IMG/VR virus record: IMGVR_UViG_3300028956_000026 | Coordinates: 1-11,868 of that record | Reading direction: 5' to 3' (one strand) | Origin: a virus | Taxonomy: Duplodnaviria; Heunggongvirae; Uroviricota; Caudoviricetes | DNA length: 11,868 nucleotides | In this document: piece after piece, positions 7,721-11,207 of the stretch | Position numbering within the stretch: position 1 is the stretch's first letter | Layout: each line of letters opens with the position of its first letter | The notes under the pieces: model-generated | Seen by the model: only the letters and a program-made list of their open reading frames with translations | Told to the model about the DNA's origin: nothing | The model's database searches: none | Program-made: the position numbers and the translations under genes

Positions 7721-7921
7721 ATGGAAATCATTACACGTATTGATGCCGCAAAGCGCGGACTTAAACGCTACTACACCGGAAAAACATGTAAGCACGGACA
7801 TGACAGTGAACGCTGGGTTTACAACGGACACTGTGTTGAGTGCACCATGGAATCAAACCGTCGTATCAGGGCAGAGATTAAGCAGATCATGATTAATTCC
7901 TCCCCACAACATTCAAGCTGA
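7721..7921 (+). CDS. Small zinc-finger-like protein (66 aa) at the cII position
   Basis: Start ATG 7721 with AGGG Shine-Dalgarno; the track ORF begins at an upstream TTG (7658). Sequence contains C-x-H-x-H ... H-C-x-x-C (GKTCKHGHDSERWVYNGHCVEC), suggesting a zinc ribbon. Confidence 0.55.
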   Translation: MEIITRIDAAKRGLKRYYTGKTCKHGHDSERWVYNGHCVECTMESNRRIRAEIKQIMINSSPQHSS

Positions 7922-7936
7922 TAGCGGAGATTAATC

Positions 7937-8752
7937 ATGAGCAGACATGCAACAGATTGGGCCTGGGAGACAGATCCAGGTAGCTCGTCATTAAAGCTCA
8001 TACTGCTCTCGATGGCTGACAGAGCCGATGAATATAACCTCTGCTACCCCAGCATAGAACGCCTCGTTAAAGACACTTGCCTGAATAAAAAAACCGTGCA
8101 GGCCGGGCTTATATCGCTCATGAAAATGGGGCTTATTTCAGATACCGGAGAGAGAAAGGGAGCGACGAAAAGAGTGCGGGTTTTCTCTCTTAATATAACC
8201 AAAAACGGGAACATTAAAGGCAACCGGGAAGGGGGTAATGAACCCGAAAACGGTAATGTTACCGAAAACGGGAATATACACAAAAACGGGATGTTGAATG
8301 ATCCCAAAAACGGGATGTTGAATGATCCCAAAAACGGGATCCAGAACCAGTCATATAACCAGTCATTTAACCAAGAGAGGGAGAGCAGGACAAAAAGCGG
8401 GGATTCTGTGCCTCATGACCCCGGCGCAAACAACGCCGTGATGAATAACTTTGTTCCTCCTGGTGGGCCAGGGCAATTAGGCAAATTTGTCATGCATGAA
8501 CAATGGCAACCATCAGATGACTTTCTTCGGAAAAGCTCATTGCAGGGGATCTACCTGGACAGTCTGCCAACGGCACAGGAACTTGCAGAGTTCAGAATTT
8601 ACTGGATGGCTGAGGGTAAGGCATACCATCAGGCGCAGTGGGAGCAGAAGCTGGCAAGGCGGCTGCAGATTAGCAGACAGAAGCAATCAACATTACCTGA
8701 TAACAACGTTCCGCACTGGAACAGCCCTGAAGCATGGGAGGATTTCTTGTGA
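7937..8752 (+). CDS. Replication initiator, O-like (winged-helix N-terminus, repeat-encoded linker, DnaT-like C-terminus)
   Basis: 271 aa with GGAGA Shine-Dalgarno. Central N/G-rich linker is encoded by DNA iterons. Positioned immediately before the P-like gene, with the stop overlapping its start. Confidence 0.7.
   Translation: MSRHATDWAWETDPGSSSLKLILLSMADRADEYNLCYPSIERLVKDTCLNKKTVQAGLISLMKMGLISDTGERKGATKRVRVFSLNITKNGNIKGNREGGNEPENGNVTENGNIHKNGMLNDPKNGMLNDPKNGIQNQSYNQSFNQERESRTKSGDSVPHDPGANNAVMNNFVPPGGPGQLGKFVMHEQWQPSDDFLRKSSLQGIYLDSLPTAQELAEFRIYWMAEGKAYHQAQWEQKLARRLQISRQKQSTLPDNNVPHWNSPEAWEDFL
8198..8342. repeat. Origin-type iterons inside the O-like gene
   Basis: Six to seven copies of CC(C/G)AAAAACGG(G/T)A; the last three form a 24-bp tandem unit CCCAAAAACGGGATGTTGAATGAT (8279-8342). 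Followed by an AT-rich ACCAGTCAT(A/T)TAACCA duplication (8355-8375). Confidence 0.7.
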
Positions 8753-9534
8753 ACAACGTTTTTACCGCAATACAAAACCGTGACGGAGAAGCCCTTTCTC
8801 GCATGTCAGGTTATGAGCATCAGTACGTCAACAATGACAACGTAGTGAACATGTCAGCAGAGAGGCTTGTTGATGCCCTTTTCAAACAGTTGAAACAACT
8901 GTTTCCGGCGGCAGTGGTAACCAACCTGAAGACGCCAGAGCAGGAAGTTGCTGCAAAACAGCAGTGGATTGCTGCGTTTGCCGAAGGGGGGATCCGAACC
9001 CGTGAACAGGTTTCTGCTGGTATGCGCCACGCCCGCGCCAGTGATTCTCCGTTCTGGCCGTCGCCAGGGCAATTCATCAAGTGGTGCAAAGACAGCAAGA
9101 TGGTTCTTGGCGTCACCATTGACGATGTGATGACGGAGTTTCACCGGTACAGCAAGGAAAAAAGTTTATATCCTGGTGGTCCCGAAAGATTCCCGTGGCG
9201 GCATCCGGTTATGTACTGGGTCGTATGTGATACCCGCCGTGCAATGTATCAGCGCCAGCTTAGCGAGATAGAGGTTGAGAAACACGCGCGCAGGCTGCTC
9301 GATGATTGGGCGAAAAAGGTGGCTTCCGGACAGCAGATACCCGATCCGGTGATCAGCATACAGGCAAAGCCAGAACCCATGAGTACGCCTCCGGACACAG
9401 GGAGAGACGTTTACCATCCACCAGGGCGAAGTTTCGGGTGCATGCCTAACGCCGCCACCCTTGGGGGAATAACACCGGCGCAGTGGCTGATGGAGGAATA
9501 CAGGCGGGGAAAGGCGGCAGGATTTATCAAGTAA
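8749..9534 (+). CDS. Replication protein P-like helicase (DnaB) loader
   Basis: Clear similarity to lambda P (PFWPSPGQFIKWCKD versus PFLPSPGQFVAWCRE; REQVSAGMRHAR versus MEQVNAGMRVAR). Start placed at GTG 8749, which overlaps the O-like stop as GTGA and has a GGGAGG Shine-Dalgarno; the track start is ATG 8734 without one. Confidence 0.85.
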   Translation: MNNVFTAIQNRDGEALSRMSGYEHQYVNNDNVVNMSAERLVDALFKQLKQLFPAAVVTNLKTPEQEVAAKQQWIAAFAEGGIRTREQVSAGMRHARASDSPFWPSPGQFIKWCKDSKMVLGVTIDDVMTEFHRYSKEKSLYPGGPERFPWRHPVMYWVVCDTRRAMYQRQLSEIEVEKHARRLLDDWAKKVASGQQIPDPVISIQAKPEPMSTPPDTGRDVYHPPGRSFGCMPNAATLGGITPAQWLMEEYRRGKAAGFIK

Positions 9535-9537
9535 TAC

Positions 9538-9560
9538 CAGCGCGATAGCGCATTTTTTTA
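9538..9560 (+). terminator. Weak terminator-like hairpin plus T-tract after the P-like gene
   Basis: Short stem GCGC/GCGC with loop GATA, followed by ATTTTTTT. The stem is only 4 bp, so this is weak. Confidence 0.25.
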
Positions 9561-9570
9561 CGCCTTGATA

Positions 9571-9587
9571 ATTACCTGTTGGGTAAT
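9571..9587. promoter_or_regulatory. Operator-like perfect dyad ATTACCtgttgGGTAAT
   Basis: Perfect palindromic arms, 65 bp upstream of the DUF1064-like gene. Confidence 0.45.
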
Positions 9588-9633
9588 AAAATATTCTAAA
9601 CTCTATTGATTTCGTGTCTTATGTGGTTTTTAA

Positions 9634-9650
9634 TTACCTTAGAGGTAAAT
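9634..9650. promoter_or_regulatory. Operator-like dyad ATTACCttagaGGTAAA overlapping the RBS of the DUF1064-like gene
   Basis: Ends 1 bp before the ATG at 9652; the GGTAA half doubles as the GAGGT Shine-Dalgarno. Confidence 0.4.
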
Positions 9651-9651
9651 C

Positions 9652-9996
9652 ATGAGAAAACAGATACAGGCTCTTGGTCGACTCAAAACAGGCCAGATGA
9701 ACAAAACAGAATCTGCGTATTGCCAGCACCTTGAGCTGCGTAAACGTGCAGGGGAAATCGCCTGGTATCGATTCGAGGGTATCAAGCTGCGGTTAGCTGA
9801 CAACACGTTCTATACGCCCGATTTTGCTGTGATGCTCGCCACCGGCGAGATGGAACTACACGAAGTGAAAGGTTTCTGGACCGATGACGCCAGAGTGAAA
9901 ACCAAAGTCGCCGCAGATCAGTATCCGTTCCGAATCATCGGGGTAACGGTTAAGCCAAAGAAAGCAGGTGGTGGCTGGAACATCGAAGAGTTCTGA
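9652..9996 (+). CDS. DUF1064-like phage protein (nuclease-fold family)
   Basis: 114 aa. Pattern KTESAYCQHLELRKRAGEI...YTPDFAV...EVKGFWTDDARVK matches my recollection of DUF1064. Good Shine-Dalgarno. Confidence 0.6.
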   Translation: MRKQIQALGRLKTGQMNKTESAYCQHLELRKRAGEIAWYRFEGIKLRLADNTFYTPDFAVMLATGEMELHEVKGFWTDDARVKTKVAADQYPFRIIGVTVKPKKAGGGWNIEEF

Positions 9997-10717: not shown

Positions 10718-11207
10718 GCGAAATTAATTACCAGGCACTGCGTGAGGCGGCGGAACGTGCAATTCCAGCAATGGNNNNNNNNNNNNNNNNNNNNNNNNNN
10801 NNNATGATGATTTGTTAAGTGAACAGGAACTTAAAGATTACGGTGTGGATATTGATGCGCTCAACGCCTTCAAATTTCTGGCCGGACCAGAAACCGTGCT
10901 GGCACTACTGGATGAACGGGAAAGGAACCAGCAATACATCAAATCACGCGACCAGGAGAACGAGGATATTGCGCTAACGGTAGGGAAGTTGCGCGTTGAG
11001 CTTGAGGCAGAAAAACAGCGGGCAAAGGATCTGTTTATGGAAAATGCTCGGCTTAAGTCAGGTATAGCCGGTCTGATACACCTCGGTATTCGATATGCAG
11101 ATGTTGATGTCATGAAAATTGCTGGAGATGCCCAGCTTTCTACCCCATACACTGACAGCATCATAAACAGCATTGCAACAGGCATTCGCATCAACGGAGG
11201 TGAGTAG
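10714..11207 (+). CDS. Ead/Ea22-like family protein (tentative), interrupted by the N-gap
   Basis: GTG 10714 with AAGGAAG Shine-Dalgarno; N-terminus VSEINYQALREAAERAIPAM then Ns. Open frame resumes after the gap (..DDLLSEQELKDYG...GIRINGGE, stop 11205-11207). Frame continuity across the gap cannot be established. Confidence 0.45.
10775..10803. other. Assembly gap (29 N)
   Basis: Run of N characters directly visible in the sequence. Confidence 1.

What the first reader, a model, noticed from the sequence alone, without database searches (positions are those of the whole stretch)
8198..8375. Replication origin iterons embedded in the O-like gene
Six to seven direct repeats of CC(C/G)AAAAACGGGA spaced 18-24 bp apart, ending in about 2.7 exact copies of a 24-bp unit, followed by an AT-rich duplicated ACCAGTCAT(A/T)TAACCA element. 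This mirrors lambda ori inside gene O. The repeats are in frame and encode an N/G-rich linker (NGMLNDPK repeats), so the same DNA serves as both coding sequence and initiator-binding array.
Basis: partly seen in the sequence, partly recalled or inferred. Interest (0 to 1): 0.5.

Follow-up and report, generated by a model that had tools for sequence, protein, structure and literature searches.

The report
Phage replication origin inside initiator gene
The repeats are real and are almost certainly the replication origin of a phiV10-like E. coli prophage, placed inside the gene of the initiator protein that binds them, as in phages lambda and phi80, so this is a well-supported but ordinary kind of feature.

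Summary
Window 8198-8340 holds six clear copies and one decayed copy of CC(A/G)AAAACGG(G/T)A. The last copies form a 24-bp unit repeated 2.5 times exactly. Three 12-nt GAACC/TAACC units follow at 8344-8379. All lie in frame inside gene 7937-8752.

That gene encodes a helix-turn-helix (Pfam HTH_36) N-domain and a DnaT-type C-domain. A lambda-P-family helicase loader gene follows. The window is a phiV10-like (Uetakevirus) prophage next to guaA.

Comparative evidence shows selection on the DNA, not the peptide:
- In 80 diverse homologues, from Vibrio and Acinetobacter to Sphingomonadales, the motif is 46-fold enriched just 3' of the N-domain.
- It is read in all three frames, is almost always on the coding strand, and often has 17-nt spacing.
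- It travels with the N-domain, whatever the C-domain.
- Among 86 close relatives, none has fewer than 5 copies.
- The annotated gp15-binding sites of phage phi80 (TTCCCGAAAACGGGAA) fit the same consensus.

The protein is not a lambda-O family member by Pfam or TIGRFAM; its N-domain is at most a remote relative.

Verdict: a new member of a known kind, the lambdoid origin inside the initiator gene. No experiment supports it yet, and the unwinding site is uncertain because the right flank is only 60% AT.

The parts
7937..8752 (+). Replication initiator gene (271 aa): HTH_36 winged-helix-type N-domain, repeat-encoded linker, DnaT-CTD-like C-domain
   Evidence: Pfam HTH_36 at residues 18-67 (E 1.8e-10) and DnaT at residues 184-252 (E 1.2e-15). 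phrog_1032 'replication initiation protein', E 5e-108. PDB DnaT chains 9zbt_D, 6aep and 4ou6, E about 1e-20.
7937..8194 (+). Coding part for the N-terminal DNA-binding domain (residues 1-86), the presumed iteron reader
   Evidence: All 73 family members hit HTH_36. K52 and T53 are invariant, and D69, T70, G71, R73 and G75 are nearly invariant. There are cross-hits with lambda O on phrog_678 and phrog_345.
8180..8219 (.). Least stable (70% AT) 40-mer of the gene, at the left edge of the array; alternative candidate unwinding site
   Evidence: Nearest-neighbour stability profile: -45.6 kcal/mol against a window mean of -55.2. Only 1.9% of all 40-mers in the window are less stable.
8198..8211 (+). 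Iteron 1, AACCAAAAACGGGAA
8221..8229 (+). Decayed iteron-like copy CAACCGGGA (7 of 9 matches), in a different reading frame; polymorphic among close relatives
   Evidence: Sequence; variable columns 8226-8236.
8243..8255 (+). Iteron 2, CCCGAAAACGGTA
8261..8273 (+). Iteron 3, ACCGAAAACGGGA
8279..8291 (+). Iteron 4, CACAAAAACGGGA
8301..8316 (+). Iteron 5, ATCCCAAAAACGGGAT (5-bp inverted arms around AAAAAC)
   Evidence: No variable column in 8279-8362 among 45 distinct alleles.
8325..8340 (+). Iteron 6, ATCCCAAAAACGGGAT
8344..8379 (+). Three 12-nt units, GAACCAGTCATA / TAACCAGTCATT / TAACCAAGAGAG: the conserved second repeat type that follows the last iteron; presumed unwinding or loading element
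   Evidence: TRF 12-bp x2.4. In the family, GAAYC is 13-fold enriched after the array, starts at a fixed 6-nt offset, repeats every 12-13 nt, and is read in different frames in 30 of 38 loci.
8486..8692 (+). Coding part for the DnaT-CTD-like domain (residues 184-252)
8749..9534 (+). Lambda-P-family helicase loader gene; its GTG start overlaps the initiator's stop codon
   Evidence: Pfam Phage_lambda_P E 1.7e-56 and phrog_109 'P-like helicase loader' E 1.5e-91. RefSeq annotation of the 99.9% identical locus.

Best explanation
Window 8198-8379 is the replication origin of a phiV10-like temperate phage, written inside the coding sequence of its own initiator.

Proposed mechanism:
1. The N-terminal helix-turn-helix domain of the protein encoded by 7937-8752 binds the six CC-N6-GG iterons. 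This probably happens as dimers, given the partial dyad ATCCC-AAAAAC-GGGAT, and would build a nucleoprotein array like the lambda O-some.
2. The array destabilises an adjacent element. The most likely candidate is the conserved GAACC/TAACC 12-mers on the right; the AT-rich left edge is the alternative.
3. The C-terminal DnaT-type domain then engages the exposed single strand and/or the lambda-P-family loader encoded downstream (8749-9534), which brings in the host DnaB helicase.

What is shown and what is inferred:
- Shown by computation: the repeats, their DNA-level conservation, their linkage to the N-domain, the domain identities and the gene context.
- Inferred: binding, unwinding, the side on which the DNA melts, and the role of the C-domain.

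The encoded Asn/Gly/Pro/Lys-rich peptide is a tolerant linker whose length changes with iteron number.
For: **1. Gene identity and context**
- The gene matches phrog_1032 (replication initiation protein), HTH_36 and a DnaT C-domain. The next gene is Phage_lambda_P.
- The locus is the early-right region of a phiV10-like prophage at guaA, with a repressor and a cro-like gene upstream.

**2. DNA-level, not peptide-level, conservation**
- In 80 diverse genomic homologues, the motif CC[AG]AAA[AT][CT][GT]G occurs 148 times in the 35 kb just 3' of the N-domain and 20 times in the other 217 kb. That is 4.2 against 0.09 per kb.
- Inside the ORFs it is read in three frames: 101 times as PKNG/PENG, 33 times as xQKR and 11 times as PKT.
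- Only 102 of 200 spacings are multiples of 3, and 17 nt is common. There are 271 copies on the plus strand and 22 on the minus strand.
- Edwardsiella GF-2 and PPompW carry ACCCAAAAACGGGA read as TQKRD/TQKRE.

**3. Linkage to the N-domain**
- GF-2, Vibrio Her and Acinetobacter AP22 share only the N-domain and have the array at the same place.
- Tyrion and SPN1S share only the DnaT-like C-domain and have no array.
- C-domains in the family are interchangeable: DnaT in 7 members, Phg_2220_C in 5, DnaA_N in 2, and the lambda-O C-domain in GF-2 (62% identity, E 2e-67).

**4. Link to a characterised origin**
- The annotated gp15-binding sites of phi80, TTCCCGAAAACGGGAA and relatives, fit the same consensus and lie at the same place in gene 15.
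- Lambda's iterons, TCCCTCAAAACGAGGGA, are of the same style.

**5. Persistence in close relatives**
- In 86 close relatives there are 5-9 iteron cores (mode 6). All length changes are multiples of 6.
- No variable column occurs in 8279-8362 among 45 distinct alleles.

**6. Partial dyad symmetry**
- CC and GG are invariant. The outer pair is complementary in 62 instances against 38 expected, a value reached by none of 300 shuffles.

**7. Published background**
- Lambdoid origins lie in the middle of gene O and consist of iterons plus an AT-rich tract (PMC7466680).
- The DnaT C-domain forms filaments on ssDNA that mark the helicase-loading site (PMC13377028).
Against: - There is no experimental evidence of binding or origin activity for this phage group. 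None was found in the searchable literature.
- The right flank is only 60% AT, whereas the lambda origin has a distinct AT-rich tract next to its iterons (PMC7466680). The least stable DNA is on the left of the array, so the unwinding site is uncertain.
- The N-domain does not match the lambda-O N-domain models. Direct profile-profile similarity is weak (hhalign probability 33%).
- The outer-arm symmetry of the iterons is only partial.
- The lack of variation in the 24-bp units could partly reflect homogenisation by slippage rather than purifying selection.
Confidence: 0.8

Rival explanations
1. The repeats are only a slippage-prone, low-complexity coding linker between two protein domains, with no function as DNA.
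For: - The array is in frame and encodes an Asn/Gly/Pro/Lys-rich peptide.
- Copy number varies among close relatives by in-frame steps. Protein lengths range from 271 to 311 aa.
Against: - The nucleotide motif is kept while its reading frame changes (101, 33 and 11 copies in the three frames).
- Half of the spacings are not multiples of 3.
- The peptide differs between lineages (PKNG, PKIG, PENG, TQKR, PKT) while CC-N6-GG is kept.
- The motif shows strand bias and dyad symmetry.
- The same consensus is annotated as gp15 binding sites in phi80.
Confidence: 0.04
2. The repeats are binding sites of the initiator, or of another phage protein, but serve mainly for control: autoregulation of initiator translation or transcription, a transcription roadblock, or copy control by handcuffing. 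Strand opening and helicase loading would occur elsewhere in the genome.
For: - Iterons in plasmids have both origin and control roles (general knowledge of iteron plasmids; review PMC4980987 listed).
- The right flank is not strongly AT-rich.
- Stx phages carry extra iterons that are bound only weakly (PMC7466680).
Against: - The layout of iterons followed by a second conserved repeat, and in many relatives by an A-rich tract, matches lambda and phi80.
- No second cluster of the motif exists in the window.
- In lambda, the two iterons next to the AT-rich tract plus that tract form the minimal unwinding unit (PMC7466680).
Confidence: 0.1
3. The conserved sequence is primarily a recombination joint: a shared 'linker' sequence that lets phages swap N- and C-terminal initiator modules by homologous recombination.
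For: - Module boundaries fall at the array. N-domain homology stops near residues 139-146, and C-domain homology starts near residue 154.
- GF-2 joins this N-domain to the lambda-O C-domain immediately after the repeats.
- C-domains vary across the family.
Against: - This explains neither the multiple tandem copies, nor the dyad symmetry, nor the fixed orientation.
- It does not explain the match to annotated initiator-binding sites in phi80.
- Module exchange at the array is an expected by-product of a flexible linker and repeated DNA.
Confidence: 0.04

Closest known systems
Phage phi80 origin in gene 15 (gp15 initiator, gp14 loader)
   Same: - Four annotated gp15-binding sites sit inside the initiator gene, between the N- and C-domain coding parts.
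- Their sequence, TTCCCGAAAACGGGAA, fits the same CC-[AG]AAAAC-GG consensus as the window's iterons.
- A lambda-P-family loader gene follows.
   Different: - The phi80 gp15 N-domain is Pfam Phage_rep_O (E 6e-25), and the rest of the protein matches the same PHROG family as lambda O (phrog_277). The window protein has HTH_36 and a DnaT-like C-domain, and BLASTP finds no similarity to gp15.
- phi80 has four sites spaced 20-21 bp apart. The window has six, spaced 18 and 24 bp.
Phage lambda ori in gene O (O initiator, P loader), and Stx-phage variants with six iterons
   Same: - The origin lies in the middle of the initiator gene.
- The iterons have inverted CCC/GGG arms around an A-tract.
- The array is followed by a second element.
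- The N-domain reads the iterons and a separate C-domain recruits the loader.
- Iteron number varies between relatives, 4 in lambda and 6 in Stx phages.
   Different: - The lambda iteron is 3-4 bp longer (TCCCTC-AAAAC-GAGGGA).
- In lambda a distinct AT-rich tract follows the iterons (PMC7466680). Here the following element is 60% AT.
- The window protein fails the Phage_rep_O and TIGR01610 models, which lambda O hits at 6e-36 and 5e-39.
E. coli DnaT (primosomal protein I) C-terminal domain
   Same: Residues 180-265 align with DnaT residues 85-170 (E 6e-21). In DnaT this domain forms filaments on ssDNA that mark the helicase-loading site.
   Different: - The DnaT N-domain and acidic linker are absent.
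- The score against the DnaT equivalog model is 85 bits, below its 201-bit cut-off.
- Here the domain is fused to a sequence-specific dsDNA-binding domain.
Iteron plasmids and DnaA/oriC (direct repeats plus an unwinding element with 13-mers)
   Same: Same logic: an array of direct initiator sites lies next to a short element repeated about once per helical turn (12-13 nt here), where the DNA would open (general knowledge).
   Different: - No Rep_3, RepA or DnaA homology was found in the window protein.
- The origin lies inside a coding sequence.

Membership tests
Lambdoid 'origin inside the initiator gene' (lambda / phi80 type) | Array of four or more direct repeats inside the initiator gene, between the parts coding for the DNA-binding N-domain and the C-domain | tested here: met
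   Six copies plus one decayed copy at 8198-8340, between the HTH_36 part (residues 18-67) and the DnaT-like part (residues 184-252).
Lambdoid 'origin inside the initiator gene' (lambda / phi80 type) | Iterons with inverted arms around an A-tract, conserved as DNA | tested here: met
   - ATCCC-AAAAAC-GGGAT in the window.
- 46-fold local enrichment in 80 homologues, use of three reading frames, and strand bias.
- Dyad statistics are partial.
- Same consensus as the annotated phi80 sites.
Lambdoid 'origin inside the initiator gene' (lambda / phi80 type) | AT-rich unwinding tract directly next to the iterons | tested here: inconclusive
   - 8341-8375 is 60% AT, and its 40-mer ranks in the least stable 9% of the window.
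- The least stable DNA is 8180-8219, on the other side of the array.
- Many relatives do have an A-rich tract after the GAAYC repeats.
Lambdoid 'origin inside the initiator gene' (lambda / phi80 type) | Helicase-loader gene of the lambda P family immediately downstream | tested here: met
   Gene 8749-9534: Phage_lambda_P E 1.7e-56, phrog_109 E 1.5e-91.
Lambdoid 'origin inside the initiator gene' (lambda / phi80 type) | Initiator binds the iterons, and the fragment supports replication | not testable with these tools
   This needs EMSA or footprinting and a plasmid replication assay.
Lambda O protein family (Pfam PF04492 Phage_rep_O; TIGR01610 phage_O_Nterm) | N-domain matches the family model above its threshold | tested here: not met
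   - No hit at E<=0.01 for the window protein.
- The controls lambda O and phi80 gp15 hit PF04492 at 5.7e-36 and 6e-25.
- Only indirect signs of remote homology exist: shared hits on phrog_678 and phrog_345, and hhalign probability 33%.
Lambda O protein family (Pfam PF04492 Phage_rep_O; TIGR01610 phage_O_Nterm) | Lambda-O-type C-terminal (P-binding) domain | tested here: not met
   BLASTP against lambda O finds nothing significant. The C-domain is DnaT-like. GF-2, by contrast, has the lambda-O C-domain.
DnaT, primosomal protein I (NCBIfam NF002770 equivalog) | Full-length match above the curated cut-off, including the DnaT N-domain | tested here: not met
   85 bits against a cut-off of 201. 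Only DnaT positions 86-169 are matched. The database names 'primosomal protein' and 'DnaT' are therefore misleading.
HTH_36-type phage initiators carrying CC-N6-GG iterons (the family delineated here) | HTH_36 N-domain followed within about 300 nt by two or more CC-N6-GG iterons on the coding strand and then by GAAYC 12-13-mers | tested here: met
   - The window meets all three criteria.
- All 73 aligned full-length members (window plus 72 homologues) hit HTH_36.
- 69 of the 76 diverse loci long enough to scan have two or more iterons.
- 38 of 69 have two or more GAAYC within 60 nt after the array.

The most novel reading that the evidence does not exclude
The window represents a widespread phage origin design that may work in two steps, like DnaA.

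1. Five to nine helix-turn-helix domains sit on CC-N6-GG iterons.
2. Their tethered DnaT-type C-domains polymerise on one strand of the adjacent GAAYC 12-13-mers once these melt. This would mark the site where the P-DnaB complex is loaded.

The iteron and GAAYC grammar is shared from Enterobacteria to Sphingomonadales, and shared with phi80. This would imply one ancient origin design whose recruitment domain is freely exchanged (DnaT C-domain, lambda-O C-domain, DnaA N-domain, Phg_2220_C).
Probability: 0.25. Interest if true: 0.5.

Novelty: new member of a known kind. Interest (0 to 1): 0.3.

Why it matters
- **Annotation.** It assigns an origin to phiV10/Uetakevirus-like prophages, which match about 10% of complete E. 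coli genomes (543 of 5426). It also corrects a misleading name: the gene is labelled 'primosomal protein' or 'DnaT' but is a phage initiator.
- **A search rule.** An HTH_36 N-domain followed by CC-N6-GG iterons and GAAYC 12-13-mers locates origins in many phages of Proteobacteria.
- **A test of selection.** The use of three reading frames is a clean computational demonstration that a coding repeat is selected as DNA.
- **Practical consequences.** The array varies in copy number and breaks short-read assemblies.
- **Limits.** The principle itself is textbook lambda biology. The only mechanistic novelty would be the role of the DnaT-type domain.

Tried and rejected
- **Hairpins in single-stranded DNA or RNA.** Folding 8190-8380 gave z = -1.5, and 18 of 200 shuffles folded as well. 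Rejected as the reason for the dyads.
- **Rac prophage oriJ/YdaU of E. coli K-12 as a characterised relative.** K-12 YdaU has a DUF1376 N-domain, not HTH_36. Rejected.
- **A small plasmid using this module as its sole replicon.** The 8.6-kb Klebsiella record is a linear fragment of a prophage-like region. It is not evidence.
- **Specificity-determining residues.** I compared the A-centre (CCAAAAACGG) and C-centre (CCAACAACGG) iteron groups. No cleanly discriminating column was found in the N-domain, and the comparison is confounded by phylogeny.
- **Literature search for the motif.** It returned only papillomavirus E2 sites and primers. Searches on phiV10/epsilon15 replication and on replication modules found no description of this origin.
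- **Antisense ORF 8044-8331.** No PHROG family matched. It is treated as spurious.
- **Arrays in initiators with another N-domain (Tyrion, SPN1S).** None found.
- **Structure prediction.** Not run. The only homologues I could submit were near-identical E. coli variants, which would give no usable alignment. I judged a second database-wide search not worth its cost for a non-decisive result.

Full report
**Observation**

Reading 7800-9700, Tandem Repeats Finder, the repeat finder and a pattern search all confirm the array.
- The 9-mer AAAACGGGA occurs five times exactly, all between 8202 and 8339. A sixth copy with one mismatch starts at 8247.
- The only other one-mismatch hits in the 11.9-kb window are three scattered sites on the minus strand.
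- The six iterons are at 8198-8211, 8243-8255, 8261-8273, 8279-8291, 8301-8316 and 8325-8340. A decayed copy (CAACCGGGA) lies at 8221-8229.
- The last copies form a 24-bp unit repeated 2.5 times at 100% identity.
- Three 12-nt units follow: GAACCAGTCATA, TAACCAGTCATT and TAACCAAGAGAG (8344-8379).
- Everything is in frame in ORF 7937-8752 and encodes an Asn/Gly/Pro/Lys-rich stretch.
- One detail needs correcting. The right-hand element is only 60% AT, against a window mean of 51%. The least stable DNA in the gene is 8180-8219, at the left edge of the array.

**Context**

- The window is 99.9% identical over the two replication genes to a prophage integrated beside guaA in E. coli WP8-S17-ESBL-12. 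It is 97.6% identical to phage phiV10, genus Uetakevirus.
- Gene 7937-8752 encodes a 271-aa protein. It has a Pfam HTH_36 domain at residues 18-67 and a DnaT DNA-binding domain at residues 184-252. Its best PHROG is phrog_1032, 'replication initiation protein', at E 5e-108.
- The C-domain aligns with residues 85-170 of E. coli DnaT in solved structures.
- The next gene (8749-9534) belongs to the lambda P helicase-loader family.
- Upstream lie a repressor-like gene and a cro-like gene. This is the early-right replication module of a temperate phage.

**Is the repeat selected as DNA or as peptide?**

This was the central question, and four results answer it.

1. Phages that share only the N-domain carry the same kind of array at the same place.
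   - These are Edwardsiella GF-2, Vibrio Her and Acinetobacter AP22, at 40-50% amino-acid identity.
   - GF-2 has AATGATCCCAAAATTGGGATTTTG x2.8. Her has CCGAAAACGGTACTTTGAATAGGC x4.6, followed by AGAACCAGTCATT x2.5.
2. In GF-2 and PPompW, a copy ACCCAAAAACGGGA is read in another frame, as TQKRD/TQKRE instead of PKNG.
3. I fetched 80 diverse genomic loci encoding N-domain homologues of 40-87% identity. They come from Vibrio, Pseudoalteromonas, Acinetobacter, Providencia, Edwardsiella, Marinomonas, Polaromonas and Sphingomonadales.
   - The motif CC[AG]AAA[AT][CT][GT]G occurs 148 times in the 35 kb just 3' of the N-domain and 20 times in the remaining 217 kb, a 46-fold enrichment.
   - Within the continuous ORFs it is read in all three frames: 101, 33 and 11 copies.
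   - With a slightly broader motif that also covers the Acinetobacter variant GTCCCAACAACGGAAC, 69 of 76 loci have at least two copies.
   - The commonest spacings are 17, 18 and 24 nt. Only 102 of 200 spacings are multiples of three. Copies number 271 on the coding strand and 22 on the other.
4. Initiators that share the DnaT-like C-domain but have a different N-domain (Tyrion, SPN1S) have no such array.

The repeat is therefore a DNA element that travels with the N-terminal DNA-binding domain.

**The second element**

Directly after the last iteron, nearly all lineages have two or three GAAYC-containing units.
- GAAYC is 13-fold enriched there. The first copy starts at a fixed offset of 6 nt in 35 loci, and copies are spaced 12-13 nt apart.
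- Within a locus the copies are read in different frames in 30 of 38 cases.
- In the window the period is 12, which is in frame. In Vibrio Her it is 13, which is out of frame.
- Many relatives then have an A-rich tract. The window lineage has a purine-rich but not AT-rich stretch instead.
Its description as AT-rich is weak.

**Close relatives**

- Among 86 loci with a 99-100% identical N-domain, the number of iteron cores is 5 to 9, with mode 6 in 61 loci. The 12-mer occurs 2 or 3 times in all but one locus (which has one). Every length difference is a multiple of 6.
- Protein clusters of 271 to 311 aa exist.
- Among 45 distinct same-length alleles, 8279-8362 has no variable column. Homogenisation by slippage may contribute to this.

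**Link to known origins**

- The lambda record annotates four ori iterons in gene O: TCCCTCAAAACGAGGGAA and relatives.
- The phi80 record annotates four gp15-binding sites in gene 15: AAACCGGAAACGGGAAG, TTCCCGAAAACGGGAA, TTCCCGAAATCAGGAA and TTCCCGAAAACGGTAG.
- The phi80 sites fit the window's consensus exactly in architecture: CC, six bases [AG]AAAAC, then GG. The lambda sites are 3-4 bp longer but of the same style.
- Despite this, the window protein does not match Phage_rep_O or TIGR01610. Lambda O and phi80 gp15 do match them. BLASTP to either protein finds nothing.
- Indirect signs of remote homology exist.
  - Both the lambda O N-domain and the window N-domain hit the same region of phrog_678 and phrog_345.
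  - A shallow profile-profile comparison aligns the helix-turn-helix and wing, with E 4.5e-4 and probability 33%.
- The GF-2 protein is a natural chimera of the window-type N-domain and the lambda-O C-domain (62% identity over 144 aa).
- Across 73 family members the C-domain is DnaT-like in 7, Phg_2220_C in 5, the DnaA N-domain in 2, and unassigned in the rest. This fits an exchangeable recruitment module behind a fixed unit of origin reader and origin.

**Mechanism**

- Shown by computation: the elements, their DNA-level conservation, their linkage to the N-domain and the gene context.
- Inferred by analogy with lambda (PMC7466680): the N-domain binds each iteron, probably as a dimer given the partial dyad. 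CC and GG are invariant, and the outer pair is complementary in 62 instances against 38 expected, a value reached by none of 300 shuffles. The array of bound protein would then strain an adjacent element.
- I favour the conserved 12-mers on the right as the site of opening, because they are conserved across the family and lie where the AT-rich tract lies in lambda. The AT-rich left edge remains possible.
- The DnaT C-domain is known to form filaments on ssDNA that mark the helicase-loading site (PMC13377028). A plausible but untested role here is to hold the opened strand and/or bind the P-like loader, which delivers DnaB.

**Rivals**

- A purely coding linker is excluded for practical purposes by the frame data.
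- A control-only role for the sites, or a role as a recombination joint, cannot be excluded by computation. Each explains less of the anatomy.
- Hairpin formation is not supported (z = -1.5).

**Novelty**

- I found no description of this origin in the searchable literature.
- The principle is that of lambda and phi80, so this is a new member of a known kind.
- It is useful for annotation, because the gene is widely mislabelled as DnaT or primosomal protein. It is of modest interest mechanistically.

Noticed in passing
window 10775-10803: A run of 29 N interrupts the sequence (a masked stretch or an assembly gap).
   Followed up: no
L176 12664-12740 (phi80, JX871397): The annotated gp15-binding sites of phi80 have the same CC-[AG]AAAAC-GG architecture as the iterons of the HTH_36 family. 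This holds although gp15's N-domain belongs to Pfam Phage_rep_O. Either the two N-domain families are remote homologues that kept their DNA target, or they converged.
   Followed up: partly
L010 1501-2343 (Edwardsiella phage GF-2): A natural chimeric initiator: a window-type N-domain with iterons, joined to the lambda-O C-terminal domain (62% identity over 144 aa) and a lambda-like GAGAATTCTGACGAATCCTCAGAC segment.
   Followed up: yes
A2 (73 family members from L095-L174): Two members carry a DnaA N-terminal domain (PF11638, E 5e-9) and five carry Phg_2220_C behind the same N-domain. The C-domain appears to be an exchangeable recruitment module.
   Followed up: partly
window about 9004 (query position 1068 of 7937-9534): The last 531 nt of the P-like gene are 97-98% identical in phages (TL-2011b, ZX5, HEMP4) whose initiator and P N-terminal part differ. 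There is a mosaic joint inside the P gene.
   Followed up: no
PP488543.1 134937-136510 (L003); PP350014.1: This temperate-phage replication module sits near the end of the 138-kb record of phage BP9, a lytic Vequintavirus, and also in the 115-kb record 'phage PH444'. This may be assembly chimerism or prophage contamination of those records.
   Followed up: no
KP869107.1 / KP869108.1 (L002): In the partial genomes of O157 typing phages 9 and 10, the match begins at query positions 285 and 301, inside the iteron array. A truncated 'dnaT' CDS is annotated there. The repeats apparently broke the assemblies.
   Followed up: partly
NZ_CP079771.1, NZ_CP079768.1 (L178): Two 41,027-bp circular E. coli 'plasmids' (one is pHL15EC-2) carry the same early-right gene order as the phiV10-like phage and have about the size of its genome (41,027 against 39,104 bp). 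They are probably whole phage genomes present as episomes or as induced phage DNA.
   Followed up: partly
window 8287-8330, minus strand: Two terminator-like hits on the minus strand (TGGGATCATTCAACATCCCG followed by TTTTTG) are a by-product of the 24-bp iteron unit and its A-tract.
   Followed up: no
family iterons such as GTACCGAAAACGGTAC (L126, L171): Some lineage variants contain the canonical papillomavirus E2 binding site ACCGAAAACGGT, which is also an origin-binding site. This is presumably coincidence, since E2 has an unrelated fold. It explains why the literature search for the motif returned HPV papers.
   Followed up: no
L114-L167 (Acinetobacter subgroup): This subgroup uses a variant iteron with C at the centre (GTCCCAACAACGGAAC). 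It also carries half-site-like copies (GTCCCAACAATTCC) that lack the right arm.
   Followed up: partly
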